Source: a virus | Lineage: Duplodnaviria; Heunggongvirae; Uroviricota; Caudoviricetes | Reading direction: 5' to 3' (one strand) | Length of the DNA stretch: 42,037 nt | IMG/VR virus record: IMGVR_UViG_2721755721_000007 | In this document: positions 13,180 through 31,535 of the stretch, piece after piece | Numbering within the stretch: position 1 is the first letter of the stretch | How the letters are laid out: each line of letters starts with the position of its first letter | Made by a program: the position numbers and the translations under genes | Notes under the pieces: generated by a model | What the model saw: only the letters and a program-made list of their open reading frames with translations | Told to the model about the DNA's origin: nothing | Databases searched by the model: none

Positions 13180-13606
13180 ACCGGACTCCTCCTGCGATCC
13201 CTTCTGATACTGTCATCAGCATTACGTCATCCTCCGTCATGTCCGCCACATCCGGGGAAGCGGGGATAACTTCATTCCCGTCCGGGCCAAAGCGGACACC
13301 TCCGGCAAGCCCTGCCGCTTTCTGCATCAGCACATCATCTTCAGGCTCTTCGTCAGCCTCGCGCCGGTTCAGCAGACTGAAATCCAGCGGATGCATATCC
13401 GGATCGCTGAAAAACAGGCTGAGCACGGTGTACGTCAGCCCGGAAAAGTGCATATCCAGCAGAACATCATGAAAATAATGGGTACTGTAAAAGCGGTGCC
13501 AGTCGGCATACTCCGTGGATGACATCCCGGCAAGCATGGCACGCCAGTCGGGTCGCCCCATCTCACGCGCCAGTTTCAGGGCAAAACTCAGCTCACCGTC
13601 GAACAC
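13172..13606 (-). CDS. T: T frame of the tail assembly chaperone gpGT (made as a G-T fusion by -1 frameshift)
   Basis: ORF in the -1 frame overlapping the 3' end of G; sequence matches the lambda T region. Confidence 0.8.
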   Translation of the reverse strand: MFDGELSFALKLAREMGRPDWRAMLAGMSSTEYADWHRFYSTHYFHDVLLDMHFSGLTYTVLSLFFSDPDMHPLDFSLLNRREADEEPEDDVLMQKAAGLAGGVRFGPDGNEVIPASPDVADMTEDDVMLMTVSEGIAGGVRYG

Positions 13607-14010
13607 TTTCCCGCAGAAACAGGCTCTGCGGGCCCGGCGTCCTCTGCCTGTTCAGGGGCATTATTCACCACAAACTCATACATACCAGACAGCCGGTACA
13701 CCACGTTTTCAGCATGAGAAATTGCCTCTGTGGGCCAGGTGGTAAGCACTTCCTGCTCAATCTGTTTAACGGCTTCATTCATGGAAGGCTGCTTTGTCTT
13801 CTGCGGATGGTTATGCCACAGGGACATCGCCACCAGAAACGCGCCGGTTCTGATGGCGTCTTCCACAGTAAACTTCCGGTTGCTGTCTGACTCCGCCTGT
13901 TCTGCCTGCCGTTTCATCAGGGCGAGATGCTCAATACGCTGCAGGGCTGACAGTTCAGAAAGCGTGACGGTCACACCGTTATGTTCAAATGATTCGGTTT
14001 TCAGGAACAT
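13588..14010 (-). CDS. G: Tail assembly chaperone G (140 aa)
   Basis: MFLKTESFEHNGVTVTLSELSALQRIEHLALMKRQAEQAE... matches lambda gpG. Confidence 0.9.
   Translation of the reverse strand: MFLKTESFEHNGVTVTLSELSALQRIEHLALMKRQAEQAESDSNRKFTVEDAIRTGAFLVAMSLWHNHPQKTKQPSMNEAVKQIEQEVLTTWPTEAISHAENVVYRLSGMYEFVVNNAPEQAEDAGPAEPVSAGKCSTVS
13605..13611 (-). other. Programmed -1 ribosomal frameshift slippery heptamer (G GGA AAG) for gpG/gpGT
   Basis: Plus strand reads ctttccc at 13605-13611, i.e. GGGAAAG on the coding strand, at the G/T overlap as in lambda. Confidence 0.75.
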
Positions 14011-14025
14011 CTCTGACTCTCCGGA

Positions 14026-14796
14026 TTAACTGGCGGTGACGGTGATTTCTGCAACCGCAGCAAACTCACCATTACCGGATACAATCGGAATGTTGACCTT
14101 GCCTGCAGCAACGCCATTCACGGTGATGGTCATACCACTGACCGACACGGTGGCTTTTGTTTTATCCGCTGACACCGCACGGAAGCTCTTGTCGGTTGCG
14201 CCTTCCGGCTGGAATGCCACGGTCAGCGTGGTGCTCTGCCCTTTCACCACCGAAGTGCTGGCAGGCGTCACGGTCATGCCGGTTGCCGCTGTTACCGTGC
14301 TGCGATCTTCTGCCATCGACGGACGTCCCACATTGGTGACCTTCACCGTGCGGGTAATCACTTCCTTCGCCGTCACCGCCTTACCGATACTGCTGACCCA
14401 GCCACGGAACACATCGACCGTGCCGTTCGGGAAGCGGATTTTATAGGCACGGGTATCACCTTCATTAAACCACGCCAGCAGCGCCTGCTGCCCCTGCTCT
14501 CCGGGCATCCACGCCAGCGTGAAGCTGGTATCTCCGGCAGATTTCTGCCCCTGCCCGGTCGCAGTCCAGTCTGCATCTTTATCATCGAGATAGCTGTCGT
14601 CATAGGACTCAGCGGTCAGTTCGCCGGGCGTCAGGTCTTTAACTTTTGCCAGACGCGACCAGTCAACGTCTGAAAGCGGGTTCGCATAAGGGTCACCGCT
14701 CCCCTTATAAACCCACAGGGTGGTCCCGGCACCTTTCACCGGCATTGTAGGATTTGGTACAGGCATAGCGTCCTCACATTTCATAGGTAATGACAT
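14026..14796 (-). CDS. V: Major tail protein V (256 aa), with C-terminal Ig-like domain
   Basis: [49 protein letters not shown]... matches lambda gpV. Confidence 0.9.
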
Positions 14797-16557: not shown

Positions 16558-17338
16558 TTACGCCAGTTGTACGGACACGAACGCATCAGGGTCAGCCAGC
16601 AGCATCAGCGGTGCTGACTGAATCATGGTGAACTCACGCGCCGGATCGCCGGTGGTCACCCAGTTTTTCGGGTAGCGGGCAGAGGCGTTAATACCTTCGC
16701 GCTGTGCGTCCGCATCCTGAATGCAGCCATAGGTGCGCAGACCGCGTGCCTGAGAGTTCCCCAGCACCATCGTGTTGTCCGGAAGGAAGTTCTTTTTGAC
16801 GTCGTTTTCCACGTACTGTCCGGAATACACGACGATCGCCGTATCGCCATACATCCCCTTATAGGACACCGCTTCGCCCAGGTCTTTTACCGCTGTCTCC
16901 AGCTCGGAATTAGAGCCGCGACGGGTATCCAGCTTCTCCTTGACGGCTTTGAAGGAACGGAACAGCGCCCAGCCTTTCGGATCAAACACGATGATATTCA
17001 CCACTCCGCTGGCGTTCAGCGCATAGGCTTCGATATCGTCGGTCGGGTCATACGTGGACTTGTCACGCTTGCTCCACTCCGTACCACCGGACTGTGTGAT
17101 GTTGTTCGCCGCACTGCGGCCCATATCCACCTCAACCGGATCGAAGGCTTCACCGGTCATGGTGTATTTGCCCTTAAGCACAGCAGAAACTGCCTGCATC
17201 TCTTCGACCTGAGCAATGGCCAGCTCTTCGTCTCGCATGTTCTGCATGATGATGCGACGGCGGCGGTAAGCCGGGTCCGCCAGATTCTGCGGATCTTCAT
17301 CCGGCAGGCGACGCAGGGTCATCTGCGGATTCACCTCA
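16558..17338 (-). pseudogene. E: 3' fragment of major capsid gene E (lambda gpE residues ~83-341), separated from its 5' part by the island
   Basis: Encodes (E)VNPQMTLRRLPDEDPQNLADPAYRRRRIIMQNMRDEELAIAQVEEM...FVSVQLA, matching lambda gpE from residue 83 to the end; no credible start or RBS (the tracked start is a GTG inside the E frame). Confidence 0.9.
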
Positions 17339-17348
17339 TGCTTCGGCT
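17339..17348. repeat. 10-bp att core / direct repeat TGCTTCGGCT (island right junction)
   Basis: Identical 10-mer at 31235-31244; flanking sequence differs, and E gene sequence resumes exactly at the repeat. Confidence 0.75.
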
Positions 17349-17482
17349 ACATGAGTCAAATATGAAAGGATGTGAATGATTTGATTACGTTTTAGCTATA
17401 GAATTGAAATGGAAAATCCTTGAATGCAATACAACGTGCAATACATGGATGAAAACCATCACTCATTTAACAAGAGGAATCT

Positions 17483-18388
17483 ATGCGCTCACCCAACAGA
17501 ATGCATGAACGCTCAACATTTTATAAGTATATGTCGTTGAATACCGCGAAGATTGTTCTTGATTCATGCAGCCTTAGATGGAGTTCTCCGGTCCTATTTA
17601 ATGACCCTTTTGATGTTCCAAGAGAAGTTATGCCTGGTATTAACGAAATTAATATTGGCAAAGCTTTAGCCCGCAAGTTAATAGCGGAGTTGATTACCCC
17701 CAGAGAAGACATACAAAATTTAAACCCTAGAATTAGAACAATGCTAAGTGATTTCCAAAAGTCATTTCCTTTAGGCATACCCGCAGGATTAATTGAAAGA
17801 TTTCAAGAAATGGTAAACATTCCACCAGTTGGGATTGGCGCTCCTGCGGCAATACAAGAAATGAAAGATGTCTGGCGAGGAATGCTTAATAACAGAAGGA
17901 TTTTGTGTTTATCTGAGAGCCCTATAATCACTCCTATGTGGAATCACTATGCCGATAAATATAAAGGTATAGTTATCGAATTGGATTGTGTAGACTTTCT
18001 GGATAGCGCTTGGTTAATAGCCAAACCTATGAAATACACAGATGAAATGCCTCTAACTCACACTGCTGAAGGGATGGCCGAGTTGCTTTTCATGCCAGAC
18101 AATAAGTCAATTGAATATATCAATAATGAGATAATATTCATAAAAACAGAAGAATGGGCATATGAAAGAGAGTGGAGAATTTCAACCTACGCTAGGCCAA
18201 ATAGCACTGGTCAATATAGCGACTTAAAATTTCACCCTTTTGAGTTAAAATCTGTAATACTTGGTCCTCTTTTTGATGCCAGCGAGTTCGATGAAGTCGC
18301 ATCACTAGTTAAAATGTATCCAAGAGCGAAATTATTTAAAAGTTCATTTGGGAACGACAGAAAAATATCCATAGTACCACTACCTTAA
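17483..18388 (+). CDS. DUF2971-like protein (301 aa), island cargo gene
   Basis: N-terminal motif FYKYMSLNTAKIVLDSCSLRWSSPVLFNDPFD resembles the DUF2971 signature as I recall it. Good RBS (GAGGA 7 nt upstream of ATG). AT-rich relative to neighbours. Function unknown. Confidence 0.6.
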   Translation: MRSPNRMHERSTFYKYMSLNTAKIVLDSCSLRWSSPVLFNDPFDVPREVMPGINEINIGKALARKLIAELITPREDIQNLNPRIRTMLSDFQKSFPLGIPAGLIERFQEMVNIPPVGIGAPAAIQEMKDVWRGMLNNRRILCLSESPIITPMWNHYADKYKGIVIELDCVDFLDSAWLIAKPMKYTDEMPLTHTAEGMAELLFMPDNKSIEYINNEIIFIKTEEWAYEREWRISTYARPNSTGQYSDLKFHPFELKSVILGPLFDASEFDEVASLVKMYPRAKLFKSSFGNDRKISIVPLP

Positions 18389-18418
18389 AAGGTCAAATGC
18401 TTTTGACAAATAAAATCT

Positions 18419-18445
18419 ATCGCCAGTTTTACTGGCGACTTTTAA
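18419..18445. terminator. Bidirectional intrinsic terminator between the convergent DUF2971 and terS-like genes
   Basis: Hairpin CGCCAG-tttta-CTGGCG flanked by A/T-rich runs on both strands. Confidence 0.45.
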
Positions 18446-18494
18446 GCAACAAAGAACCACCTAAGCACTCTTCCTACCTATGGTTTCATTTGTT

Positions 18495-19046
18495 TTAACT
18501 TCGCTGATTATCCTTGATATACCTTTCAGCCATATCTGGAATGTTATCTGAGATCTGGTAAGCTCGAATAAATGCTTTACTGACCTCCATCTTAATGAAG
18601 TCCTGATACCGTTTTTCCATGCCAGGAAACTGTCGACAGATCGCAAGTGGAAGACTATCAATGATTGCTCCAACTTCCCCAGTTAATTTCGACAAGGCAT
18701 AAGTCGCAAATGCAGTGTCAATTACCTCACCTGTTTCGCTGGCATTCTTCAGTTCCTGTGCGTCGGCCTGCGCACGCGTAAGTCGATGGCGTTCGTACTC
18801 AATAGTCCCTGGCTGGAGATCTGTCTCGCTGGCCTGCCGCAGTTCTTCAACTTCCCGGCGCAGCTTTTCGTTCTCAATTTCAGCATCCCTTTCGGCATAC
18901 CATCTTATAACGGCGGCAGAGTCATAAAGCACCTCATTACCCTTGCCACCGCCTCGCAGAACGGGCATTCCCTGTTCCTGCCAGTTCTGAATGGTACGGA
19001 TACTCGCACCGAAAATGTCAGCCAGCTGCTTTTTGTTGACTTCCAT
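18495..19046 (-). CDS. Island terminase small subunit, Nu1-like (183 aa): N-terminal ~100 aa near-identical to the prophage Nu1, C-terminal ~80 aa divergent
   Basis: MEVNKKQLADIFGASIRTIQNWQEQGMPVLRGGGKGNEVLYDSAAV... matches the prophage Nu1 (36879..37424) to about residue 100, then diverges but stays alignable. Confidence 0.85.
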   Translation of the reverse strand: MEVNKKQLADIFGASIRTIQNWQEQGMPVLRGGGKGNEVLYDSAAVIRWYAERDAEIENEKLRREVEELRQASETDLQPGTIEYERHRLTRAQADAQELKNASETGEVIDTAFATYALSKLTGEVGAIIDSLPLAICRQFPGMEKRYQDFIKMEVSKAFIRAYQISDNIPDMAERYIKDNQRS

Positions 19047-19267
19047 TGTTCATTCCACGGACAAAAACAGAGAAAGGAAACGACAGAGGCCAAAAAGCTC
19101 GCTTTCAGCACCTGTCGTTTCCTTTCTTTTCAGGGGGTATTTTAAATAAAAACATTAAGTTACGACGAAGAAGAACGGAAACGCCTTAAACCGGAAAATT
19201 TTCATAAATAGCGAAAATCCGCGCGCCTGACGCCCCGTAGCCTGTCAGATCGCCGGAAAGGACCCGC
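18739..19267. repeat. ~0.53 kb segment near-identical to the prophage nu1 5' half plus cosB (copy of 37117..37643)
   Basis: Aligns base-for-base with 37117..37643 apart from a few substitutions and a divergent cosN block. Confidence 0.85.
19060..19240. other. Island cos site: cosB-like Nu1-binding repeats identical to the prophage, cosN region altered
   Basis: R-site-like GGAAACG repeats as in lambda cosB. At the cosN position (19225-19236) the island reads cgcctgacgccc where the prophage reads aggtcgccgccc (5 of 12 differ). Confidence 0.7.
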
Positions 19268-19291
19268 CAGCCAGAGCGGGCCCTAATTTCA

Positions 19292-19675
19292 TCAACCAAT
19301 CAGCTTATAGCGACCATCCCGTGCATTGCGGCGTACACGCTCAATCTTGAGGCATAGCGCCGCATCTGGCTTTTTTGGGACAGGTACGCGGCAATATTCA
19401 GAAGCGCGAGGAATATTATTTATCCAGTCGATCACTTCACTTAAATACCAGGCCTTACGCCCTTCCGTAACCTGCACACGCTCCGGGAACTCTCCACTAG
19501 CCTCAAGGTTTAGCAGTGTACGCCGACTCAGGGTTGTAATTTCCATCACCTGATTCATATCAACAAGGCGCTCGCTTAAACACATTTTGTCAGCGATAGC
19601 TTTTAATTCCTCTACAGCTGGATTCGGGTACATCATTTCGGCAATTGGCTTAAGGTCATTGTAATCATTTTGCAT
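19292..19675 (-). CDS. AlpA/excisionase-like HTH DNA-binding protein (127 aa)
   Basis: C-terminal half MEITTLSRRTLLNLEASGEFPERVQVTEGRKAWYLSEVIDWI resembles the phage AlpA-family HTH. Confidence 0.55.
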   Translation of the reverse strand: MQNDYNDLKPIAEMMYPNPAVEELKAIADKMCLSERLVDMNQVMEITTLSRRTLLNLEASGEFPERVQVTEGRKAWYLSEVIDWINNIPRASEYCRVPVPKKPDAALCLKIERVRRNARDGRYKLIG

Positions 19676-19686
19676 TGTATCCCCCT

Positions 19687-20028
19687 TTACACACGAGCCA
19701 GCGGCTGAACAGAAATACCTGAGCCAACAAACGCTGCAATCTTTACTGACAGTTCTTTTACAGACTCAGGCCAGTTCAGAGCATCAACATTTAAGACACC
19801 TGTCTTATAGACCTGAGCCTGTGTTTTTTTCGCGGTGTCGATTTGTACAGCGGAAACATAAACCGCTTTACCTACGCTCGAACCATCCCATACCACCAGT
19901 GCACCTGTTGCATCTTCCTGCATCAGTGGCGTAAATGCAGGAATTACCCCTTTATTAGCTGAAAATATCCCCAGCGTAGTCACCAGTGCTTCAGTGCCAG
20001 CCATGAGTTCAGTGTAATGAGTAGCCAT
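19687..20028 (-). CDS. Head decoration protein, lambda gpD homologue (113 aa), island-encoded
   Basis: TPLMQEDATGALVVWDGSSVGKAV... aligns with lambda gp[28 protein letters not shown]; similar length. Confidence 0.7.
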   Translation of the reverse strand: MATHYTELMAGTEALVTTLGIFSANKGVIPAFTPLMQEDATGALVVWDGSSVGKAVYVSAVQIDTAKKTQAQVYKTGVLNVDALNWPESVKELSVKIAAFVGSGISVQPLARV

Positions 20029-20037
20029 TGCTCCCCC

Positions 20038-21078
20038 TTAGCCAATGCGAACGGTAACAAAACGATTGATGCGGGCCGGTATTGGCTGTGGTGCTGAATG
20101 TGTCTGCACATATTCAATAGCCGGATCACCAGGCACAATATAGTTTTTCGGTGCAAGTTCGGCTTTAGTCAGCCCCATTCGGATTAGCTCCGGATCCTGA
20201 ATACCGCCATAGGCGACAATCCCCTGAAGAGCCGTATTGCCAAGCACCATCAAATCAGGATCAAGGAAATGTTTTTCAGTTCCGTCCTCGTCGGTATAAC
20301 GCCCGCTGTAAACAACAATCGCAACATCGCCCATATATCCTTTAAAACTCACCGAATCACCAAGGTCTTTAAGGGCCGTTTCCAGTTCGGAATTAGAACC
20401 ACGACGGGTATCCAGAGCCTCTTTTATCGCTCTGAATGAACGGTATTTCTTCCATACATTACCGCCCATAATGATGATATTAGTGACGCCCTCACTAAAT
20501 TCTGCGTAGCTCTCAATATCATCATTTGGATCAAAAGTTTCTTTATCCTTACCTGACCACTCAGTACCGCCAGACTGAGTGATGATATTTTGTGGTTTAA
20601 TATTCCAGTCCAGCTCATAACGTTCAATACCATCGCCCTCAATGATATTTTTCCCCGTTGTGATTGCCTGAACGGCAAGCCATTCAATACGTGCACGAAT
20701 AGCTTTAGCTTGATTTACAATCGCCTGTTTAACTTTAATATTACGCGCCCCAAAAGCATTGTATTGCTCAGGTGATACACCAGCAGGGCGCACAGCTAAC
20801 TTATTTGGATCAATGCTGCTTTTCGGCTTCATATAGCCTGGACGAATTGTTTTTGATTCGTACCCTTCGTCACGTGAAACTTTACTACCCACCATAGGAG
20901 AACAAAACGCTGCAATTGGGATATTTGGATCGTCGATTGTATCAAGAATAATATCGCGCGATCCAAACATTACCGAGCGAGTAAAAAACAAACTGGTAAA
21001 CAACGCATTTAGTTGTTTTTGTACATCTACAGCATTAACCACCTGTACAAGCTGGGTAGGCGAATATAAATCAACCAT
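20038..21078 (-). CDS. Major capsid protein homologue, lambda gpE family (~346 aa), island-encoded
   Basis: About 50% identical to lambda gpE over the C-terminal two-thirds (ITQSGGTEWS..., DTRRGSNSELETA.KDLG, GDVAIVVYSG). Start taken at MVDLYSPTQ, with AAGAGG 6 nt upstream; the tracked ORF extends a further 71 codons. Confidence 0.85.
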   Translation of the reverse strand: MVDLYSPTQLVQVVNAVDVQKQLNALFTSLFFTRSVMFGSRDIILDTIDDPNIPIAAFCSPMVGSKVSRDEGYESKTIRPGYMKPKSSIDPNKLAVRPAGVSPEQYNAFGARNIKVKQAIVNQAKAIRARIEWLAVQAITTGKNIIEGDGIERYELDWNIKPQNIITQSGGTEWSGKDKETFDPNDDIESYAEFSEGVTNIIIMGGNVWKKYRSFRAIKEALDTRRGSNSELETALKDLGDSVSFKGYMGDVAIVVYSGRYTDEDGTEKHFLDPDLMVLGNTALQGIVAYGGIQDPELIRMGLTKAELAPKNYIVPGDPAIEYVQTHSAPQPIPARINRFVTVRIG

Positions 21079-21252
21079 ACGCATCCTCTTTGCATTCATT
21101 AAAAATAATTGTGGATATATGCTATCACCGATATTTGTCATGCGAACACATGCAACCGAGTGCAATGTTGTATAAAGTTTTGGGGTGACAACTTCAGTGC
21201 GGACAATTAGTGTTAATATCTTCACTCCCTTTGGTCGGGATTTATGTAGCAT

Positions 21253-21283
21253 GCCGGAAAATTTATTTTTTCCGGCTTTTTTT
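21253..21283 (+). terminator. Terminator-like hairpin oriented against the island late operon
   Basis: GCCGGAAAA-tttatt-TTTTCCGGC followed by TTTTTTT on the plus strand, in the SSB/capsid-homologue intergenic region. Confidence 0.4.
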
Positions 21284-21294
21284 ATTGGCAATAT

Positions 21295-21744
21295 TTAAAA
21301 CGGGATATCATCTCCCCATTGCTCATTATCTCCCTCTGGTGGCTGGCTTCCTTGCTGATCTGCCTGTTGTTTTGCTCTGTTCAGTGCGTCAGTAGCCTGC
21401 CCCTGTTGGCCTTTTTTGCCGCCCGGTCGCACCGATCGCGCACTGATTACGCTGTCTGCGATAACCTGCCAGCCCTGCCGCGTTTCGCCGTTCTGTCCAG
21501 TCCACTGGCTCATCTGCATGTTACCCGCCACGCTCAGGAGTTCGCCTTTGTGATGCTTTGCCAGCGCGTCGGCTTGTCTGCCAAACGCCAGGACAGATAA
21601 CCACAACGTCGCCAGACCGTCATCCGACTGACTGCAGGGCAGTGATACCGCCATACGCGCCAGCGTCATGGGGGTGCCCTTGCTGGTCTGTTTTGTCTGC
21701 GGGTCGTCCACCAACCGCCCGTAAACTGATATTTGCGCCGTCAT
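21295..21744 (-). CDS. ssb: Single-stranded DNA-binding protein (149 aa)
   Basis: OB-fold-like N-terminus, Gly/Gln-rich linker and the acidic C-terminal tail ...WGDDIPF typical of bacterial and phage SSB. Confidence 0.8.
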   Translation of the reverse strand: MTAQISVYGRLVDDPQTKQTSKGTPMTLARMAVSLPCSQSDDGLATLWLSVLAFGRQADALAKHHKGELLSVAGNMQMSQWTGQNGETRQGWQVIADSVISARSVRPGGKKGQQGQATDALNRAKQQADQQGSQPPEGDNEQWGDDIPF

Positions 21745-21998
21745 GCTGCCTGCTCTCCGGACTTAATATTGATTGTTGTCACTTCCTCCGCTTCAGCAAT
21801 CTCCCGTTCGGTCAGCGTGGCAAAGTTTGCAGCCGCCGTTGTCATGAATGCGCTTATCAGTTCGGGATGTGCTTTCGCGTATCCTTCCCCGGCGTTGCGG
21901 TCTATTGCCTTAATCGCCACCCTTAGCCAGTGTTCAGCCATATCAAGGGCGCGGTAATGTGGCTTTATATGTTTGTTCAGTTTTCCTGATGTGTGCAT
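21741..21998 (-). CDS. Hypothetical protein (85 aa)
   Basis: ORF tightly coupled to ssb (4-nt overlap); no recognised motif. Confidence 0.4.
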   Translation of the reverse strand: MHTSGKLNKHIKPHYRALDMAEHWLRVAIKAIDRNAGEGYAKAHPELISAFMTTAAANFATLTEREIAEAEEVTTINIKSGEQAA

Positions 21999-22039
21999 TT
22001 TTATTTTTACCCCCTCGTTTAAAAAGTTTTTTGTGCACC

Positions 22040-22277
22040 ACCACCTTGTCTACCTTGTCTACCTGATTAGTTATCAGGCCAGTAATGGCGCGGGTTTCAG
22101 GGAGGTAGACAGCCCCAAATAGCTGTCTACCTCATCTCTACCCGTCTCCTTACCTGTCTACAAAAATGGGTAGATAAGGTAGATAACAGGTAGACAGTGA
22201 AAAATAGTTATCTACCTGCATTAATACATTGAAATAAAAGTATTTTCTTTCAGTCAGGTAGACAAGGTAGATAACCA
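22040..22277. repeat. Iteron array, putative island replication origin
   Basis: At least 10 copies of an 8-bp GGTAGA(C/T)A motif in both orientations within ~240 bp, immediately 3' of the primase-helicase gene. Confidence 0.75.
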
Positions 22278-22287
22278 TTGCCATTTT

Positions 22288-24039
22288 TTATAAAAACGCA
22301 TCGCAATCATCAGTAGTCGTTGCGTTGGTCTGCGTGACTCCCTTAACTTTTCGCGTAATATATTCATATCCGTAAACTTTCGCCGCTGACCTCATAGCCT
22401 TTCCGAACTCATTCACGCTCAAACATTTCCCCTTTCCTGTGTATGCCATGAAGGCCATATAGACACGGTAAAGGCTGTTTCTGGTCGTGTACTTCACGGT
22501 GTCACCACCACCGCCCATCATTAGCCCACGAGCTTCCTCCAGAAACTCCAGCGCCGCGCAAAGCTCAACAACCGGATCCGTTTGCTGCTTTATTGCCAGA
22601 GCTTCATCACCGTCACGCTGTTCCAGTAATAAAGCCCGTGCCTTTTCAGGGGCAGCAAAATTAGCCAGCAAGCGGCGGATAATTACGGGGATTTCTGCCG
22701 CTATCTTTTCCGGTAATTCCTTGTCTTTTTCGTCCTCCCTTACAATGTTGTCGAACCGGAAAATCACCCGACGGCGTGACACACCTCCGGCCCGTTCGGT
22801 AAAGATCATCGGGTCGTTATTGGTTGCCAGTACCACCGCCCTTATTATCGTCGTGAATCGCTTCTCATATTTCGGGTTAATTTCAACGGGATCGCCTCCC
22901 GTGATTTTCTTGATGCCCGTGCCTTCCCCCGTATATTTCGGCTGATCGGCAAGGACGATAAGACGACTCCCGACAACCTGCGCGCGCCCTCCTGCATCAT
23001 CGAGTGATGTCATCTCCGCGCTTACGGTGTTCTGTTTGCCAGCAAGCAGGGTGGCAATATGGGTAAATGTACTCTTACCGCTTCCCCCGTCTCCGGTGGC
23101 CTCAATGAACATCTGCCAGTCGTAGCGGTTCGCCATAATCATGTATAACGCGGCACATATACGCATCATCTTACGCGGGTCTTTTCTTGCAGCATGTTCA
23201 AGCCATTTATGGAAATTTGGCGCATTATCGCGGATGTTTTCCCCTGCTACTGGTGGCGTGTACTCAATGCCATTGTGCGTGGTGCTCCAGTGCTCCGGCG
23301 AGTGCGGAGAAAATTCCCCCGTTTTCAGGTTAAGCACACCATTAGTGAACGGTAGCAAATCACCGGACGGCTCCCCCATGGGGTCGGCAATAACTTTTAA
23401 CGCTTCCACGGCGTTATTGATTACACGTTTGCTGAACGTGGCCCTGTGCTCTGAATAGATCGCCACCATTTCGCGGCTCAGCTCCATTGTGCTGACCGGA
23501 CACCATACCCCGCCGCGCCATACGTGGACGATTTCACTTTCTGCATGAACACACACACCATCAAAGCGATCGGCAAGTAGTTGTGCACGTTCACTGTCTG
23601 CCATCTGTGAAAGTTGCGCCTTTTGCTTCGTCGGAAGATTAAGCACCAGACTTTCCCCACGCTCGCATTCCTCTTTGAGTCGCGGCAACTGCTCGGATAA
23701 ATCCACTGGGCTGGTGTCAGTAATCCCCGCGTATTCGTGTACGGTCTTCACTCCAGCCACAGCCAGTAACGTAACAATCTGCGTCATGCTGTGCTCTGTG
23801 ATATGTCCTGCGCGGTAAACACGCACACACTGACGATCTTCATCAATGATCCGGTAATCGGTGATATTTTTCAGTTGCTCATCAGCCAGCACGACAGGCG
23901 GCACATCGTCGGCGGCAATATGTTTACCCGCCCATTCCCGCCACTCTTTCGCATGGCTCCACGCATCACTACCTGCAAAGATGATTACCTCTGTCAGTCT
24001 GTCGCGTGGCTGTTTTTTTAAGTTCGGTGCCAGTTTCAT
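22288..24039 (-). CDS. Primase-helicase (P4/D5-like, SF3 helicase domain), 583 aa
   Basis: Walker A GDGGSGKST and layout typical of the P4-family primase C-terminal domain; positioned as a PICI pri-rep gene next to the iterons. Confidence 0.8.
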   Translation of the reverse strand: MKLAPNLKKQPRDRLTEVIIFAGSDAWSHAKEWREWAGKHIAADDVPPVVLADEQLKNITDYRIIDEDRQCVRVYRAGHITEHSMTQIVTLLAVAGVKTVHEYAGITDTSPVDLSEQLPRLKEECERGESLVLNLPTKQKAQLSQMADSERAQLLADRFDGVCVHAESEIVHVWRGGVWCPVSTMELSREMVAIYSEHRATFSKRVINNAVEALKVIADPMGEPSGDLLPFTNGVLNLKTGEFSPHSPEHWSTTHNGIEYTPPVAGENIRDNAPNFHKWLEHAARKDPRKMMRICAALYMIMANRYDWQMFIEATGDGGSGKSTFTHIATLLAGKQNTVSAEMTSLDDAGGRAQVVGSRLIVLADQPKYTGEGTGIKKITGGDPVEINPKYEKRFTTIIRAVVLATNNDPMIFTERAGGVSRRRVIFRFDNIVREDEKDKELPEKIAAEIPVIIRRLLANFAAPEKARALLLEQRDGDEALAIKQQTDPVVELCAALEFLEEARGLMMGGGGDTVKYTTRNSLYRVYMAFMAYTGKGKCLSVNEFGKAMRSAAKVYGYEYITRKVKGVTQTNATTTDDCDAFL

Positions 24040-24335
24040 TTTTTGCCCCTGAATGCGTTAATCATGCTTTTCATTTTCTGGATGTTTCCCCGCGCTTTTT
24101 CCCTGCTGATGGGCTTACTGCGGGGTGCGGCATATACCAGGGAAAAATCACGCCGGAACTGATAAACAGGCATCACGCAGTCATAGCTATACCCCTCACG
24201 GCGGTAAGTGATGCGCCGTTCTGCCACGCCTTTAATCGTTACTGTGCCGCCGTATTTATCGCGGTAAATATCGCCGTTCATAAATTCAGGCCGAGCGGGG
24301 CCGCTGGCAATAAAGCCAGAATTTTTCATTTCCAT
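24036..24335 (-). CDS. Hypothetical protein (99 aa), translationally coupled to the primase
   Basis: ATGA overlap with the downstream primase start; no recognised motif. Confidence 0.45.
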   Translation of the reverse strand: MEMKNSGFIASGPARPEFMNGDIYRDKYGGTVTIKGVAERRITYRREGYSYDCVMPVYQFRRDFSLVYAAPRSKPISREKARGNIQKMKSMINAFRGKK

Positions 24336-24352
24336 ATTATTTATTCCTCGAC

Positions 24353-24574
24353 TTAACTCGACTTATTTGATAGCAGGGCACTATTTATTGCGTCATTGAG
24401 TTTTTCTGCTGATTCATCAATAAGTGACAACAGGCCATAAGCAATATTTGCATCTTCATTGTCATTTATGCAATCAAGCCACATATTTAATATTGCTTTT
24501 GCTGAATTATTTAAAGTTAATGAACTTTCTGCACATGCTAACAATTTAAAAAAGACTTCCCGTTCTGTATTCAT
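24353..24574 (-). CDS. Hypothetical small protein (73 aa)
   Basis: Part of a head-to-tail run of small ORFs in the island early operon; AT-rich. Confidence 0.35.
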   Translation of the reverse strand: MNTEREVFFKLLACAESSLTLNNSAKAILNMWLDCINDNEDANIAYGLLSLIDESAEKLNDAINSALLSNKSS

Positions 24575-24766
24575 TTAATCCCCCACCAGCTTACTTTCTT
24601 CCTCAATCAGGAAACTAGCGACACTTCCCGAAAGGCGCGCCAGTAGGCTCGCCAGCGCGGATATATCAGCATCTGTAATTTTGTTCGGGTATACCTCAAG
24701 AAGGCGGCAAATAATTTCTGTCTGGTGCGCACGTTCAGCGGCTTCGTGTAATGTGATTTCCTGCAT
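24575..24766 (-). CDS. Hypothetical small protein (63 aa)
   Basis: Tightly packed ORF in the same operon. Confidence 0.35.
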   Translation of the reverse strand: MQEITLHEAAERAHQTEIICRLLEVYPNKITDADISALASLLARLSGSVASFLIEEESKLVGD

Positions 24767-24951
24767 TAATGCACCTCTTTTAATTCATACACTGCTGAAA
24801 TAATGACTTGTGATAAGCCATATTCTGATGATTCGCTTCTCACCGCAGCAATAGCCGTCTGAACATTAACAGCCTTCACGTTCTGAGTGATACCAATTGT
24901 GTGGCCCAGTGGGTTAACAGCTCGGGCAAATACACGGAAGGTTTTAAGCAC
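24766..24951 (-). CDS. Hypothetical small protein (61 aa)
   Basis: Tightly packed ORF in the same operon. Confidence 0.35.
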   Translation of the reverse strand: MLKTFRVFARAVNPLGHTIGITQNVKAVNVQTAIAAVRSESSEYGLSQVIISAVYELKEVH

Positions 24952-25207
24952 GGCACACCTCCTGACGAATACGGGCGGCGAATATCATCACGTAGCCAGT
25001 TGGGGATTGCTGGCGGGCTTCCTGTTCGCTGGCGGCCTCGATGTGTATTACGCGTGGTTGTGCGGTGCTCAGGGCGATAAAACGCCAGATGTATTTATTC
25101 AGGTTGTGCGAATCCCGCCCTTGCGGGTGTGTGGTATGATTTCTCATAGCTACCTCGATACTGTTGCTATCGTTGGTGGTTAGACGCCCTGTATGTGTTG
25201 CGAGCAC
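24944..25207 (-). CDS. Hypothetical small protein (up to 87 aa; start uncertain)
   Basis: First ORF of the leftward operon, divergent from the RHH gene; an internal Met (MRNHTTHPQ...) is a possible alternative start. Confidence 0.35.
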   Translation of the reverse strand: MLATHTGRLTTNDSNSIEVAMRNHTTHPQGRDSHNLNKYIWRFIALSTAQPRVIHIEAASEQEARQQSPTGYVMIFAARIRQEVCRA

Positions 25208-25244
25208 TGCAGGGCGTTGTTATATAGCAATAAAACATGATAAG

Positions 25245-25286
25245 GTGTGTACCTATCAAGAATCATACTAAGCAATAGGTACACAC
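25245..25286. promoter_or_regulatory. Perfect 12-bp inverted repeat (GTGTGTACCTAT-N18-ATAGGTACACAC) abutting the RHH start codon; putative operator
   Basis: Read directly; arms at 25245-25256 and 25275-25286, lying in the divergent intergenic region between the early operon and the RHH gene. Confidence 0.55.
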
Positions 25287-25481: not shown

Positions 25482-25504
25482 TAATTTGCATAAAGGATTC
25501 TTCT

Positions 25505-26854
25505 ATGACAACAAGTCACAAAATGCTAGAAATCAGTAAAGAACAATTTGATGTATTTTTCTATGGTCGTACACCATACGTAAAAACCTTTTCGGAGGAA
25601 ATCTGTTGGTTCAAATTTATAAAGGATGATGTCACGATCTTAGCAACAATTGTTTTTTGTAAAATAGATAATGATTACAACGCTATATTTCTAGGTAGGG
25701 ATTTAGATAAAAAATTTAGAGCGATTAAAGTAATTGTATCCCGTGAATCTAAAGATGATTTAATTACTGATATGGAAAAAGCCATACCAGAGCTATTATC
25801 ACTACACAAGAACGGTTGTTTTATACAGGGTGACGAATCAGAGTCGGCATTTTCAATATTCCTAGCCAAAGTTCCAGAACATAAAAAAAACGTTTATCTA
25901 AGAATGCTACTTGAGGAACCCAAACACTATCCTGCATTTATTGTTATGCAAGAGTTAGCTTATTGGTGTAAAGATCCTGATGGAATATTCATCAGAGATT
26001 TCCAGAGTGCTTCATTTAACTCTCGCTTATTCGAACTTTATCTAAACGCAGTTTTCTACGAAATGGATTTCGTAATATGCAGAGATTATGCTCAACCTGA
26101 TTATATTATCTCAAAAAATGGCATTGATATTGCTGTAGAAGCTGCCACAGTTGCAGAACAAGAGGAACCTACCGAGAAATTGATACTTGATCATGAGGCA
26201 GTAGAAGATCTTCAGAGATATGTAAAAGAACAAATGCCATTCAAATTTGCCCGCACTCTATTAAAGAAAGTTAGGCATAAACCTGAACCCTTAAAATTAT
26301 GCTATTGGGAACTAGATCATACAAAAGGAAAGCCTTTCATTATTGCTTTACACGATTACTCACGCAGATTTTCGATGAGTATATCAATGCCAGCACTACA
26401 AAGCTATCTGTATGGTGTAGATATGGATTCTGGAAGTAAAATTGAACAACATTTATTTGAAAATCGAAGTATACAATCTAATTTTTTCGGCTCTAATAAA
26501 AATGAGAATGTCTCAGCCATATTACTTGCGACACATGCCACCATCCCAAAATTTGATAGGATGGGAGTAGTGGCAGGGATTGAACAAAAAAATGTCAAAT
26601 CCATCGTTAGAGGTATTAAAACTGATGAAGGCTGTACCCCAATGCCTTTTACTGCTCTTGTCAATGCACCTTCATATCAAGAACCATGGTGTACAGCAAT
26701 ATACATGTTTCATAATCCGAAGGCATTAAATCCTATACGCCCTGAATTATTCCCAAGAGTTATTCATATTTTTGAAGAAGATGGAGAAATAGTTCAATAC
26801 TTACCACCTAATTATATAATCTCATCAACTACGCACGTATTTGAATTTAAGTGA
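25505..26854 (+). CDS. Orphan protein of unknown function (449 aa), co-oriented with and 24 bp downstream of the RHH gene
   Basis: Long uninterrupted ORF in a markedly AT-rich segment; no Walker A, HEPN, or other motif I can recognise. Confidence 0.6.
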   Translation: MTTSHKMLEISKEQFDVFFYGRTPYVKTFSEEICWFKFIKDDVTILATIVFCKIDNDYNAIFLGRDLDKKFRAIKVIVSRESKDDLITDMEKAIPELLSLHKNGCFIQGDESESAFSIFLAKVPEHKKNVYLRMLLEEPKHYPAFIVMQELAYWCKDPDGIFIRDFQSASFNSRLFELYLNAVFYEMDFVICRDYAQPDYIISKNGIDIAVEAATVAEQEEPTEKLILDHEAVEDLQRYVKEQMPFKFARTLLKKVRHKPEPLKLCYWELDHTKGKPFIIALHDYSRRFSMSISMPALQSYLYGVDMDSGSKIEQHLFENRSIQSNFFGSNKNENVSAILLATHATIPKFDRMGVVAGIEQKNVKSIVRGIKTDEGCTPMPFTALVNAPSYQEPWCTAIYMFHNPKALNPIRPELFPRVIHIFEEDGEIVQYLPPNYIISSTTHVFEFK

Positions 26855-26905
26855 TTTCAAATCCTATGGGTTTACCCCATAGGATTACATCCACTGTCTA
26901 AATTC

Positions 26906-27127: not shown

Positions 27128-27176
27128 GTTAACCAGCCTTTTGTTTGTAAGCGACTCGTCAGAACCGTATTGATAT

Positions 27177-28748: not shown

Positions 28749-28767
28749 ATCCTCACTTTACAACGGG

Positions 28768-29792: not shown

Positions 29793-31072
29793 TATTTTTG
29801 TAGAGCCGGAGGAAACAGACCAGACGGTTTAAATGAGCCGGTTACCTTTTGTTTGAGGATTGTCACTTTTGAATCAGCACCTGCGATGCTATTGAGATAT
29901 GTAGTCCAGAGTTCCAGAGCATCCAGTTTTTTAGCCATAAACTTACTCCGGTTGTAAACACCTGCCACGCCAGGTAGCGCATGGCCTAACAGTTGTTCTA
30001 CTACATAAAATTCAACACCGAGATCACTTAGATGAGTAGATAGCGTTCTTCTAAGGTCGTGTAGTGACCATTGTTTTTCATGGCCCAAACGTTTACCGAT
30101 TTTCCCCCCAATCTTGCTTACGCTTTCTCTAATTCGCAGACTTCCCAGCACATAACCAGTATGTTTTGTCTCTTCGTGAACATCCGTTACCCACTGTCGT
30201 AGAATTTCAGGTACTGGTCTGACGATTTCAACACCAGTTTTTGAGTGATCTTTTGGTACAGTCCAAACCCAACTTTCGAGATCCCATTCGCTCCATTCTG
30301 ATAATCGGGCTTCACTCATTCGACATCCAAATACTGTACAAAGCACAAACATTTTTCGCGTGTATTCAGACATTAGTTTTAAATCAGGCTCGACAAAAAT
30401 TGCCTTCCAGAGCTGGCCGAGTTCGGCTTCATCCAGAACCCGATCCCGCTTACCTGCAATCTGCCCCACATCACTCATGCGCAAATCCTTTAAAGCATCA
30501 CACGTCGCGTACTGGCGTACCCGACAAAAACGAAGAGCTAATTTAGTGTCAGAAAAAACATACGCCGCCATAACTGGTGCATTACGTTTAATTCGGTCAA
30601 AACAGTCCAGCCATTCATATAGGTGAGTGTCATTTACGGGCAAATGACCGATATAGGGAAAGATATGCTTTCGAAATCTGCCAAGCGTTACAGCATGAGT
30701 TTTACGACGCACCTTACAGTAATTTTCATACCAGTAATTTAGTGCATCCTCCACTGTGACCGGCTTTAAGCGTTCTTCAGCCTGAATCTTAATCTGGATA
30801 CGCGGATCACGTTTGTCAGCCAACCAACCACGGCACTCGTCGCGCTTTTCCCTTGCCTGTTTGAGTGACATATCAGGATATTTACCCAACGTTAGCCAGA
30901 CCGGAGCAGCCCGGCCACCTGCTAACCTGTAGAAGAAAACAAAGCTCACAGCCCCTTTAGTACTCACACGAATAGAAAGCCCCTTTCCATCAGCAATGGT
31001 GATCTGCTTTTCTCTGGGTTTCCCCAGATATCCTTTAAGCGCTTTGTCGCTCAGTTTGTTCTCGCCAGCCAT
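29792..31072 (-). CDS. int: P4-type tyrosine integrase; native 3' end interrupted by the IS66 at ~29846
   Basis: H-x-x-R box (HDLRRT), LLGH and a conserved Tyr in GVYNR near the C-terminus. Start taken at MAGENKLSDK. The reading frame runs into the IS, adding ~18 foreign codons. Confidence 0.85.
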   Translation of the reverse strand: MAGENKLSDKALKGYLGKPREKQITIADGKGLSIRVSTKGAVSFVFFYRLAGGRAAPVWLTLGKYPDMSLKQAREKRDECRGWLADKRDPRIQIKIQAEERLKPVTVEDALNYWYENYCKVRRKTHAVTLGRFRKHIFPYIGHLPVNDTHLYEWLDCFDRIKRNAPVMAAYVFSDTKLALRFCRVRQYATCDALKDLRMSDVGQIAGKRDRVLDEAELGQLWKAIFVEPDLKLMSEYTRKMFVLCTVFGCRMSEARLSEWSEWDLESWVWTVPKDHSKTGVEIVRPVPEILRQWVTDVHEETKHTGYVLGSLRIRESVSKIGGKIGKRLGHEKQWSLHDLRRTLSTHLSDLGVEFYVVEQLLGHALPGVAGVYNRSKFMAKKLDALELWTTYLNSIAGADSKVTILKQKVTGSFKPSGLFPPALQK

Positions 31073-31234
31073 TTTTAGCCCCAAAAAGCAATACAAGCTG
31101 CAATACAGAGATGATTGCAACACACAGATAACGAGGAAAATTCAGTGAAAGCACCAGATAAACTTATTCTTTATTATCAAAAGATTAAGTGTAAAAACCA
31201 GCAACTACACGAAAGCCTCAGAAAGCCATGCTAA

Positions 31235-31244
31235 GTGCTTCGGC
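31235..31244. repeat. 10-bp att core / direct repeat TGCTTCGGCT (island left junction)
   Basis: Identical to 17339-17348; capsid gene E sequence resumes on the far side. Confidence 0.75.
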
Positions 31245-31480
31245 TTGACATATCCCGGTGTAAATTCAGAGGTGGAGCCGCCACGGGAGCGGATAACCTC
31301 ACCGGAAACAATCGGCGAAACGTACAGCGCCATGTTTACCAGTCCCGGAATTTGTGAGAGATAGACTTTCTCCGTGGTGAAGGGATAGCTCTCACGGAAA
31401 AAGAGACGCAGAAACAGCGGATCAAACTTAAATTTCTTCTCATTTGCCGCCAGCAGCTGGGCGGTTGTGTACATCGACAT
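31235..31480 (-). pseudogene. E: 5' fragment of major capsid gene E (codons 1-82), reading into island DNA to a stop at 31205
   Basis: MSMYTTAQLLAANEKKFKFDPLFLRLFFRESYPFTTEKVYLSQIPGLVNMALYVSPIVSGEVIRSRGGSTSEFTPGYVKPKH matches the lambda gpE N-terminus, then 9 foreign codons (LAWLSEAFV). Confidence 0.9.
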
Positions 31481-31535
31481 AAAAAAATCCCGTAAAAAAA
31501 GCCGCACAGGCGGCCTTTAGTGATGAAGGGTAAGG

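What the first reader, a model, noticed from the sequence alone, without database searches (positions are those of the whole stretch)
17483..18388. DUF2971-like cargo gene at the island edge: candidate single-gene anti-phage or accessory function
A 301-aa protein with the N-terminal signature FYKY...FNDPFD sits alone on the opposite strand between the island terS and the att junction. This is the position where satellites commonly carry variable cargo such as defence systems. It is in an AT-rich segment with its own RBS and a bidirectional terminator. I cannot assign a biochemical function.
Basis: partly seen in the sequence, partly recalled or inferred. Interest (0 to 1): 0.7.

Follow-up and report, generated by a model that had tools for sequence, protein, structure and literature searches.

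The report
ART-fold defence cargo on embedded satellite
A 301-residue DUF2971 protein with a predicted ADP-ribosyltransferase fold sits as swappable cargo at the 3' edge of a phage satellite embedded in a lambdoid prophage's capsid gene; it is most likely an untested single-gene anti-phage protein from an already-predicted family, not a new kind of system.

The parts
17483..18388 (+). DUF2971 / PDC-S31 gene, 301 aa, predicted ADP-ribosyltransferase-fold cargo protein
17473..17478 (+). Shine-Dalgarno sequence AGAGGA, 4 nt upstream of the ATG
   Evidence: Sequence. Conserved in the Klebsiella orthologous island.
18419..18439 (.). G+C-rich hairpin between the convergent DUF2971 and terS genes. 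Terminator-like on the - strand; weaker U4 tail on the + strand.
   Evidence: Scan. Fold z-scores -4.66 and -4.73.
17339..17348 (.). att core TGCTTCGGCT at the island's 3' junction, inside prophage capsid gene E
   Evidence: Exact 10-bp repeat with 31236-31245. Matches the 10-bp identity block reported for 11capE (PMC10111431).
17426..17445 (+). Doubled GCAATACA motif (att arm). Cargo-specific DNA begins just after it, at about 17449.
   Evidence: The motif is conserved in five islands whatever their cargo.
16558..17334 (-). C-terminal 258-aa fragment of prophage major capsid protein E, split by the island
   Evidence: phrog_6020 E 1.7e-158, profile positions 84-340.
18495..19046 (-). Island Nu1-type small terminase, convergent neighbour of the cargo gene
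   Evidence: phrog_57 E 1.3e-65.
25505..26854 (+). Second AT-rich opposite-strand cargo gene of the same island: PD-T7-1 homologue in the 5' slot
   Evidence: PADLOC PDLC04073 E 1.3e-153, full length. GC 34.5%.
29845..31123 (-). Island tyrosine integrase. Its last 2 codons are replaced by the IS66 insertion.
   Evidence: Pfam. 409/409 aligned residues identical to the 411-aa integrase of sister island L018. Present with the junction in 174 E. coli genomes.
31236..31245 (.). att core at the island's 5' junction
31088..31107 (+). Doubled GCAATACA motif on the integrase-side arm
31205..31507 (-). N-terminal fragment of prophage capsid protein E
   Evidence: Pfam Phage_cap_E profile positions 1-78.

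Best explanation
The gene encodes a stand-alone anti-phage protein with no antitoxin partner. It is carried as exchangeable cargo in the 3'-end immunity slot of a helper-embedded PICI satellite.

**Proposed mechanism.** The protein is an NAD+-dependent ADP-ribosyltransferase. Its catalytic core is beta1 with K15, beta2 with S34/S35, the R139-ILCLSE strand, the PMW-x-HY156 helix, and [E/Q]228-x-E230 at the start of a strand. The closest folds are the nucleic-acid-modifying ARTs DarT and Tpt1. It is transcribed on its own, antisense to the helper and satellite late operon, so it would be made in the uninduced lysogen. I propose it is kept inactive until a superinfecting phage is sensed, probably through the two poorly conserved modules (helical insert 55-137 and C-terminal 263-301). 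It would then ADP-ribosylate phage or host nucleic acid, or less likely a protein, halting phage transcription or replication in an abortive-infection manner.

**Shown computationally:** gene anatomy, slot variability, family membership, ART fold and invariant residues.

**Inferred:** catalytic activity, the defence phenotype, a nucleic-acid target, and sensing by the variable modules.
For: **Family**
- PADLOC PDC-S31, E 3.4e-31, over aa 9-289. This is one of 145 candidates found embedded in BREX, DISARM, type I RM or Hma loci (bioRxiv 10.1101/2024.01.29.577857).
- Pfam DUF2971, the domain of Aristaios, a 316-aa single-gene Abi system that blocks phage transcription (PMC11381338, PMC13064643).

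**Fold**
- AF2 pLDDT 94.9, pTM 0.86.
- An independent study assigns DUF2971 to the ART superfamily near DarT and AbiGi (PMC12522546).

**Active-site-like conservation**
- K15, S34, D41, D44, Y156, Y185, K221, E230 and R232 are invariant or nearly so in 72 close sequences and 128 diverse ones. Position 228 is E in 124 and Q in 4, the canonical [E/Q]xE.
- Core segments are 75-80% conserved. The two peripheral modules are 41-46% conserved.

**Slot**
- Islands with the same integrase carry an AbiJ/Abi_C gene, DUF3892 or an unknown gene here, in the same orientation.
- The 5' slot holds PD-T7-1 in this window (E 1.3e-153), a TIR/PDC-S35 protein in L018, and another DUF2971 in L002.
- PICIs are reported to carry immune genes at their 5' and 3' ends (PMC11364771).

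**Autonomy**
- Homologues are solitary with unrelated neighbours, on satellites, at a P2-like prophage end, in a lambdoid prophage beside SIR2 and HD genes, or in integrase islets with HEPN_AbiV or CbtA.
- 645 representatives at E<=1e-30; the 150 best-scoring are nearly all stand-alone proteins of about 300 aa.
Against: - No experiment exists. PDC-S31 is explicitly untested.
- Aristaios is from a Gram-positive host and I could not compare sequences directly, because only a BioProject is given.
- I found no sequence-level link to any ART. The PDB profile search was empty. The Pfam scan of all members hit only DUF2971. hhalign against a DarT profile was non-significant, even with the inserts removed and a broader profile of Neff 6.1. 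Foldseek was non-significant.
- The motif-I position is Lys, not the canonical His or Arg.
- My motif map rests on secondary structure and conservation, not on a residue-level superposition.
- There is no antitoxin or hydrolase partner and no recognisable promoter, so control of a potentially toxic enzyme is unexplained.
- Only about 32 of 174 capE islands carry the gene.
Confidence: 0.6

Rival explanations
1. The defence role is the same but the chemistry differs. The ART-fold core acts as an NAD+ glycohydrolase that depletes NAD+ on infection, as TIR and SIR2 effectors do, or it ADP-ribosylates a protein such as RNA polymerase or a translation factor rather than nucleic acid.
For: - The K / S-S / [E/Q]xE pattern looks like the R-S-E clade of protein-modifying ARTs.
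- Aristaios affects phage transcription (PMC13064643), which is compatible with a protein target.
- NAD+-depleting TIR and SIR2 genes occupy equivalent slots or neighbouring positions.
Confidence: 0.2
2. It is a satellite life-cycle or helper-interference factor rather than general immunity. For example, it might modify helper DNA or RNA or the packaging machinery to favour the satellite, or control the helper prophage in which the island is embedded.
For: - The gene sits next to the satellite's terS and capsid module and to the att site.
- It has kept this slot and orientation in capE islands of E. coli, Enterobacter (88% identity) and Klebsiella (71% identity), which suggests more than transient cargo.
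Against: - It is transcribed antisense to the late and satellite operon and is insulated by a hairpin.
- It is absent from about 80% of islands with the same integrase, which carry unrelated cargo there.
- Close homologues occur with no satellite at all, on P2-like and lambdoid prophages and in integrase islets.
Confidence: 0.1
3. It is a host-directed or inter-bacterial toxin or effector (a virulence or competition factor), or a purely selfish addiction toxin, with no anti-phage role.
For: PMC12522546 predicts that about 18% of DUF2971 proteins are effectors and found the family through Legionella effectors. ART folds are common in secreted toxins.
Against: - Among the contexts sampled I saw no secretion-system, Rhs or immunity-gene neighbours.
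- The protein is a compact, stand-alone cytoplasmic-looking protein of about 300 aa, with no delivery domain in the model.
- The slot and its neighbours are defence-rich.
- There is no adjacent immunity or antitoxin ORF and no Rfam RNA.
Confidence: 0.05
4. It is a catalytically dead ART-like scaffold (a pseudo-enzyme), or the gene is not expressed and is silent AT-rich cargo.
For: Motif I is Lys instead of His or Arg. No consensus promoter is present. There is no sequence similarity to active ARTs.
Against: The ExE glutamates and about 30 other positions are strictly invariant across sequences that are only 38-88% identical, and across 128 representatives clustered at 50%. That argues for strong purifying selection on an active site. 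The RBS and the full-length ORF are conserved across genera.
Confidence: 0.05

Closest known systems
PADLOC PDC-S31 (phage defence candidate, single gene; Payne et al., bioRxiv 10.1101/2024.01.29.577857)
   Same: Full-length HMM match (PDLC04990, E 3.4e-31, aa 9-289 against profile positions 5-246 of 259; four further PDC-S31 models also hit). Single-gene architecture. Found next to other defence genes.
   Different: PDC-S31 is a prediction by 'guilt-by-embedding' and has never been tested. Here the gene is not embedded in a BREX, RM or Hma locus. It sits in a satellite's 3' cargo slot.
Aristaios (Lactococcus plasmid pUCCL641, 316 aa; PMC11381338)
   Same: Pfam DUF2971. Single-gene system of about 300 aa. 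The predicted structure resembles an ADP-ribosyltransferase. Carried on a mobile element.
   Different: Gram-positive host and a plasmid rather than a satellite. Direct sequence identity is not measured, but it is certainly low, because a tblastn of my protein against plasmids listed no Lactococcus among the top organisms. The Aristaios phenotype (Abi, block of Skunavirus transcription) is experimental. Nothing is known for this protein.
DarT of DarTG toxin-antitoxin systems (PF14487; PDB 7omv, 7yk3, 8baq)
   Different: No detectable sequence homology. No DarG macrodomain or NADAR antitoxin partner. Lys instead of His in motif I, and ExE instead of a single Glu. Two large helical inserts and an extra C-terminal module.
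Tpt1/KptA RNA 2'-phosphotransferase, NAD+-binding lobe (PDB 7yw4)
   Different: Tpt1 is a housekeeping tRNA-splicing or RNA-repair enzyme that also has a separate RNA-binding lobe. No sequence similarity. The mobile-element context argues against a housekeeping role.
PICI 5'/3' immunity hotspots (Fillol-Salom et al. 2022, as cited in PMC11364771) and helper-embedded PICIs of the 11capE type (PMC10111431)
   Same: The island has int, alpA-like, pri, capsid, head-decoration and terS genes. It is integrated in capsid gene E through a 10-bp identity block with a doubled arm motif. Cargo sits at both ends.
   Different: The HE-PICI paper does not discuss defence cargo. The observation that both ends of capE islands are defence hotspots with opposite-strand cargo (DUF2971 / AbiJ / DUF3892 at the 3' end; PD-T7-1 / TIR / DUF2971 at the 5' end) extends the known PICI rule to this subclass.

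Membership tests
Pfam DUF2971 (PF11185) | HMM score above the gathering threshold | tested here: met
   36.9 bits against a cut-off of 22, E 9.3e-9, full profile 1-89 on aa 152-233. All 72 aligned homologues also match.
PADLOC PDC-S31 | Match to the family HMMs over most of the protein | tested here: met
   PDLC04990 E 3.4e-31, aa 9-289 against profile 5-246/259. PDLC04994, 04991, 04992 and 04993 also hit. PADLOC's own coverage and E-value cut-offs were not available to me.
PADLOC PDC-S31 | Genomic association with defence genes (the basis of the candidate call) | tested here: met
   PD-T7-1 on the same island. Homologues lie beside HEPN_AbiV and SIR2_2 + HD. Alternative cargo in the same slot is AbiJ-like. 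This is a small sample, not a statistical enrichment.
PADLOC PDC-S31 / anti-phage system in general | Experimentally demonstrated protection against phage | not testable with these tools
   PDC systems are described as untested.
ADP-ribosyltransferase superfamily | Split beta-sheet ART fold | tested here: met
ADP-ribosyltransferase superfamily | Motif III catalytic Glu ([E/Q]-x-E) at the start of a core strand | tested here: met
   E230 is invariant (128/128). Position 228 is E in 124 and Q in 4. The strand is 230-236 in the model. Structural equivalence to the catalytic Glu of known ARTs is inferred, not superposed.
ADP-ribosyltransferase superfamily | Motif I His (H-Y-E clade) or Arg (R-S-E clade) on beta1, and motif II Tyr or Ser-Thr-Ser | tested here: inconclusive
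   Beta1 carries an invariant Lys15, not His or Arg. Candidates for motif II are S34-S35 on beta2 and the invariant Y156. PMC12522546 reports a poorly conserved motif-I His, a strictly conserved Tyr and ExE for DUF2971.
ADP-ribosyltransferase superfamily | NAD+ binding and ADP-ribose transfer | not testable with these tools
   Needs biochemistry.
DarT / DarTG (PF14487) | Sequence homology to DarT | tested here: not met
   No PF14487 hit even at E<=10 for any of 72 members. hhalign of DUF2971 profiles against a 33-sequence DarT profile gave probability <=0.4% in every variant.
DarT / DarTG (PF14487) | Adjacent DarG (macrodomain or NADAR) antitoxin | tested here: not met
   No co-oriented neighbour. 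The flanks are the att arm and a terminator. Homologues have unrelated neighbours.
Aristaios | DUF2971 domain in a single-gene system of about 300 aa with an ART-like predicted fold | tested here: met
   against the description in PMC11381338.
Aristaios | Direct sequence homology to the Aristaios protein (same subfamily) | not tested
   The sequence was not obtainable. Only BioProject PRJNA1086404 is given.
Helper-embedded PICI, 11capE type (context of the gene) | Tyrosine integrase next to a split lambdoid capsid gene E, a 10-bp attL/attR identity block and a doubled arm motif; int, alpA and pri present | tested here: met
   Capsid E fragments at 31205-31507 and 16558-17334. Core TGCTTCGGCT twice and doubled GCAATACA twice. 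Integrase, AlpA-like and primase genes. Compared with PMC10111431.
Tpt1/KptA | N-terminal RNA-binding lobe with the catalytic Arg-His-Arg-Arg tetrad | not tested
   The only link is fold similarity to the 120-residue chain 7yw4_A. No sequence similarity.

The most novel reading that the evidence does not exclude
The DUF2971/PDC-S31 proteins may be a large, unstudied class of free-standing nucleic-acid ADP-ribosyltransferases: about 645 clusters in the close subfamily and more than 20,000 in the wider family. They would work like DarT but need no antitoxin, because the variable helical insert and C-terminal module auto-inhibit the enzyme until a phage cue is sensed. In helper-embedded satellites, their antisense placement at the distal end of the satellite, in the path of helper late transcription, would let helper induction silence the toxin. 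The satellite and its helper would then escape their own abortive-infection gene.
Probability: 0.15. Interest if true: 0.65.

Novelty: new member of a known kind. Interest (0 to 1): 0.4.

Why it matters
If the gene does protect against phage, it would be the first tested Gram-negative member of DUF2971/PDC-S31. That family has thousands of members on plasmids, prophages and satellites, and only one distant relative, Aristaios, has a phenotype. The gene would also give a tractable E. coli model for two questions: how a single-chain ART is kept harmless without an antitoxin, and what it modifies.

The comparison also shows that helper-embedded PICIs follow the PICI rule of carrying immunity genes at both ends. 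Their cargo here includes PD-T7-1, TIR, AbiJ-like and DUF2971 genes. This makes their still-unannotated slot occupants, such as the 438-aa protein in NZ_OW968288 and the DUF3892 protein in NZ_CP172134, cheap candidates for new defence genes.

None of this overturns current understanding.

Tried and rejected
- NCBIfam: no hit.
- Profile search of PDB sequences: only spurious helical matches.
- Foldseek against PDB: nothing significant, with DarT1 top at E 0.27.
- Foldseek against viral BFVD models: nothing significant, so no resemblance to known phage ARTs such as Alt or Mod.
- Pfam scan of all 72 family members at E<=10, looking for DarT, AbiGi or Tox-ART hits: only DUF2971.
- hhalign of the family profile against DarT: tried against a DarT fragment, against a 33-sequence DarT profile, with both helical inserts excised, in local, global and low-mact modes, and with a broader 128-sequence profile. 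All were non-significant. The published sequence-level DarT link (PMC12522546) is therefore not reproduced here.
- Aristaios sequence for a direct comparison: not available in the text. A tblastn against plasmids listed no Lactococcus among the top organisms.
- Deposited phage genomes: only four weak, partial matches, so this subfamily is not typical phage cargo in INPHARED.
- Rfam over the island: no RNA family, so no known RNA antitoxin or sRNA.
- Sigma-70 promoter scan: no consensus promoter upstream. Alignment of upstream regions showed conservation of att-arm elements and the RBS only.
- DarTG-like two-gene toxin-antitoxin reading: rejected, because there is no partner gene.
- Housekeeping Tpt1-like enzyme: rejected, because of the mobile, patchy, AT-rich context.

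Full report
**1. The observation**

A Shine-Dalgarno AGAGGA lies 4 nt upstream. The gene is 37.9% GC, against 48% for the island backbone and about 57% for the surrounding prophage. It is the only + strand gene in a run of - strand genes. A 9-bp G+C-rich hairpin at 18419-18439 separates it from the convergent Nu1-type terS gene (18495-19046). The hairpin is a strong outlier against shuffles on both strands (z about -4.7). It passes the terminator consensus only on the - strand, and the + strand tail has four U. No sigma-70 consensus promoter was found upstream. Pfam confirms DUF2971 (36.9 bits against a cut-off of 22). "Bidirectional terminator" is plausible but only half-supported.

**2. Context**

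The window is a lambdoid prophage on the - strand: Nu1, gpA, portal, gpC, gpD, then tail genes. Its major capsid gene E is split into an N-terminal fragment (31205-31507) and a C-terminal fragment (16558-17334) by an island of about 13.9 kb.

The island encodes, in order:
- a tyrosine integrase;
- an AlpA-like HTH protein;
- a primase;
- an SSB-like protein;
- its own E-like capsid and D-like decoration proteins;
- a second AlpA-like protein;
- a Nu1-like terS.

The two junctions share the 10-bp core TGCTTCGGCT (17339-17348 and 31236-31245), and each arm has a doubled GCAATACA motif. This is the helper-embedded PICI of the "11capE" type. It is described as integrating in capsid gene E through a 10-bp identity block, with 201 instances found (PMC10111431). 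The DUF2971 gene is the last gene of the island, about 135 bp from the att core.

Aligning this junction from five islands shows that the att core and the doubled motif are conserved whatever the cargo. Cargo-specific DNA starts right after the motif, at about 17449.

**3. Start codon**

RefSeq annotates the gene from Met50 (252 aa, WP_001117802.1). I consider that wrong, for four reasons:
- Homologues from other genera align over 98-100% of the 301 aa.
- Residues 1-49 include invariant positions: K15, Y16, L31, W33, S34, S35, P36, N40, D41, P42, D44, P46 and R47.
- The AF2 model places two core strands there, with pLDDT 93-98.
- The Klebsiella island conserves AAGAGG-N5-ATG and the first codons.

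**4. What the protein is**

*Sequence libraries*
- PADLOC candidate family PDC-S31: E 3.4e-31 over aa 9-289.
- phrog_1762, unknown function: E 1.2e-67.
- NCBIfam: nothing.

PDC-S31 is one of 145 candidates that Payne et al. derived from genes embedded in BREX, DISARM, type I RM or Hma loci. They state explicitly that these are untested.

*Family size.* The family is large. An exhaustive profile search finds 20,324 representative clusters at E<=1e-3 and 645 at E<=1e-30. The 150 best-scoring are almost all stand-alone proteins of about 300 aa matched end to end.

- then SopF, TreX, scabin, CARDS, and pertussis, cholera and diphtheria toxins and PARPs.

This agrees with two publications. One survey assigns DUF2971 to the ART superfamily next to DarT and AbiGi (PMC12522546). 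The other describes the DUF2971 protein Aristaios as ART-like (PMC11381338).

*Conservation.* The pattern fits an enzyme with variable sensing or specificity parts.
- The core strands and their loops are 75-80% conserved.
- The helical insert 55-137 and the C-terminal module 263-301 are 41-46% conserved.
- In a broader set of 128 representatives, K15, D41, D44, W153, Y156, Y185, K221, E230, R232 and G261 remain invariant.
- Position 228 is E in 124 and Q in 4, the classical [E/Q]-x-E of ART motif III.

*My motif map* is inferred from secondary structure and conservation, not from a superposition:
- beta1 FYK15Y at the motif-I position;
- S34-S35 on beta2 and/or Y156 as motif II;
- E228-x-E230 as motif III.

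**5. Limits of the ART assignment**

- I could not reproduce any sequence-level link to known ARTs. The PDB profile search was empty.
- Pfam at E<=10 gave only DUF2971 for all 72 members.
- Foldseek was not significant, although DarT1 with NAD+ ranked first.
- hhalign against a 33-sequence DarT profile was non-significant in every variant. I built that profile from PDB-derived sequence. The variants included inserts excised and a broader query profile.
- The motif-I residue is Lys rather than His or Arg.

The protein is therefore not a member of the DarT family, and it has no DarG-type partner. The claim is that it has the ART fold and probably works like a DarT-type or Tpt1-type enzyme.

**6. 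Evidence that it is defence cargo**

*The 3' slot is variable.*
- The integrase with its capsid junction occurs in 174 of 5,426 complete E. coli genomes. The full DUF2971 gene occurs in 32.
- Sister islands with a 100% identical integrase carry other cargo at this edge, in the same opposite-strand orientation. L018 has an Abi_C/AbiJ-like protein (Pfam 1.3e-23, PADLOC AbiJ 2.2e-21). L019 has a DUF3892 protein. L002 has a 438-aa protein with no hits.
- Chromosomal PICI relatives have small hypothetical genes of about 93 aa there.

*The island's other end behaves the same way.* The slot between the YlcI-like gene and the int-proximal HTH gene holds:
- in this window, a full-length PD-T7-1 homologue (E 1.3e-153), one of the 21 systems selected experimentally in E. 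coli (bioRxiv 10.1101/2022.05.12.491691);
- in L018, a CAP12/Pycsar-type TIR protein (PDC-S35);
- in L002, a different DUF2971 protein, 21% identical to this one.

*The literature* states that PICIs encode immune systems at their 5' or 3' ends (PMC11364771).

*Homologues elsewhere are solitary, with unrelated neighbours, on mobile or variable DNA:*
- the same capE slot in Enterobacter (88% identity) and Klebsiella (71% identity) islands;
- the Ogr end of a P2-like prophage;
- a lambdoid prophage early region beside SIR2_2 and HD genes;
- integrase islets with HEPN_AbiV or CbtA;
- next to a Gp49/HTH pair in Thiobacillus.

Distant DUF2971 paralogues are common on enterobacterial plasmids, with 506 records.

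*A validated relative.* Aristaios is an experimentally validated single-gene abortive-infection system that interferes with phage transcription.

**7. Most likely mechanism (confidence about 0.6)**

The protein is a stand-alone NAD+-dependent ADP-ribosyltransferase expressed in the lysogen from its own transcription unit. It is silent until a superinfecting phage is sensed. It then modifies nucleic acid (the DarT/Tpt1-like option, favoured by the fold ranking) or a protein, stopping phage transcription or replication at the cost of the cell. The fold, the invariant residues, the slot variability and the family membership are shown computationally. Catalysis, the defence phenotype, the target and the sensor role of the variable modules are inferred.

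The antisense orientation relative to the helper late and satellite operon, together with the insulating hairpin, suits a gene that is expressed independently of satellite induction. It raises the untested idea that late transcription could silence it during induction.

**8. Rivals**

- The same defence role with other chemistry, an NADase or a protein ART (0.2).
- A satellite life-cycle or helper-interference factor (0.1). Retention of the slot across genera favours it. Its absence from most sister islands and its presence outside satellites argue against it.
- A secreted effector or an addiction toxin (0.05).
- A pseudo-enzyme or a silent gene (0.05). Strict invariance of about 30 residues across divergent sequences argues against it.

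**9. Novelty and score**

Every element is already in the literature:
- HE-PICIs (2023);
- PICI end-located immunity (2022 and 2024);
- DUF2971 as ART-like (2024-25);
- a DUF2971 Abi system (2024);
- the PDC-S31 prediction (2024).

This locus is a new, untested member of a known kind. Two things are mildly new. Both ends of capE helper-embedded PICIs are documented as defence slots with opposite-strand cargo. The conserved K / S-S / Y / [E/Q]xE signature with two variable modules is also defined for this subfamily. Interest is 0.4. It is a sound candidate for a first Gram-negative DUF2971 defence gene and for studying an antitoxin-less ART, but it is not surprising to a specialist.

Noticed in passing
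window 25505-26854 (+): The island's second AT-rich (34.5% GC), opposite-strand cargo gene is a full-length PD-T7-1 homologue (PADLOC PDLC04073, E 1.3e-153; it also hits PD-T7-5). It lies in the integrase-proximal slot between a YlcI-like gene and the AlpA-like HTH gene.
   Followed up: partly
window ~27128-29844 (ORFs 27177-28748, 28768-29115, 29115-29792, all -): An IS66-family element (TnpA/TnpB/TnpC) is inserted exactly between the island integrase and its downstream AlpA-like HTH gene (26906-27127). The integrase loses only its last 2 residues and gains a short IS-encoded tail. This may uncouple int from the HTH gene and affect excision.
   Followed up: partly
window 17483-17629; RefSeq WP_001117802.1 in NZ_CP027461.1 (L001 16296-17054): PGAP starts this gene at Met50 (252 aa). 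That removes two core beta-strands and the invariant K15, WSSP and NDPFD motifs. The conserved RBS, the conserved N-terminus in Klebsiella and Enterobacter, and the AF2 model all indicate that the 301-aa form is correct.
   Followed up: yes
window 16558-17334 and 31205-31507; island ~17339-31245: The whole island is a helper-embedded PICI of the 11capE type that splits the prophage major capsid gene E. It carries its own E-like (20038-21291) and D-like (19687-20028) genes. This is a known configuration (PMC10111431). The integrase and junction occur in 174 of 5,426 complete E. coli genomes.
   Followed up: yes
L002 (NZ_OW968288.1) 7429-8745 (+) and 17254-18075 (-): A sister capE island lacks terS and carries a 438-aa protein with no Pfam or PADLOC hit in the 3' slot. 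It also carries a different DUF2971 protein (272 aa, 21% identical to this one) in the integrase-proximal slot. Both are untested defence candidates.
   Followed up: partly
L018 (NZ_CM187539.1) 5016-5777 (+) and 13352-14227 (-); L019 (NZ_CP172134.1) 5195-5482 (+): Sister islands with an identical integrase carry an Abi_C/AbiJ-like gene (3' slot) and a CAP12/Pycsar-type TIR protein, PDC-S35 (5' slot). Another carries a 95-aa DUF3892 protein in the 3' slot, a possible new small defence or regulatory cargo.
   Followed up: partly
window 18419-18439 (- strand reading): The hairpin with a U-rich tail on the - strand ends the satellite's co-oriented gene block. It lies in the path of helper late transcription towards the capsid E C-terminal fragment and the tail genes. 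While the island is integrated it could attenuate late read-through, unless Q antitermination overrides it.
   Followed up: no
window 18495-19046 (-): The island's Nu1-like terS gives a PADLOC hit to mad1 (mads_1, E 2.4e-11) over its N-terminal HTH (aa 3-54). This is probably shared HTH similarity and has no defence meaning.
   Followed up: no
window ~37500-38600, ORF 38088-38513 (+): Another AT-rich patch (GC about 37%) in the prophage, just past Nu1, holds a + strand 141-aa ORF with no PADLOC hit. In related prophages this position holds morons such as iss.
   Followed up: no
window 17849-17856: A third copy of GCAATACA, the att-arm motif, lies inside the DUF2971 coding sequence. It is probably chance in AT-rich DNA.
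   Followed up: no
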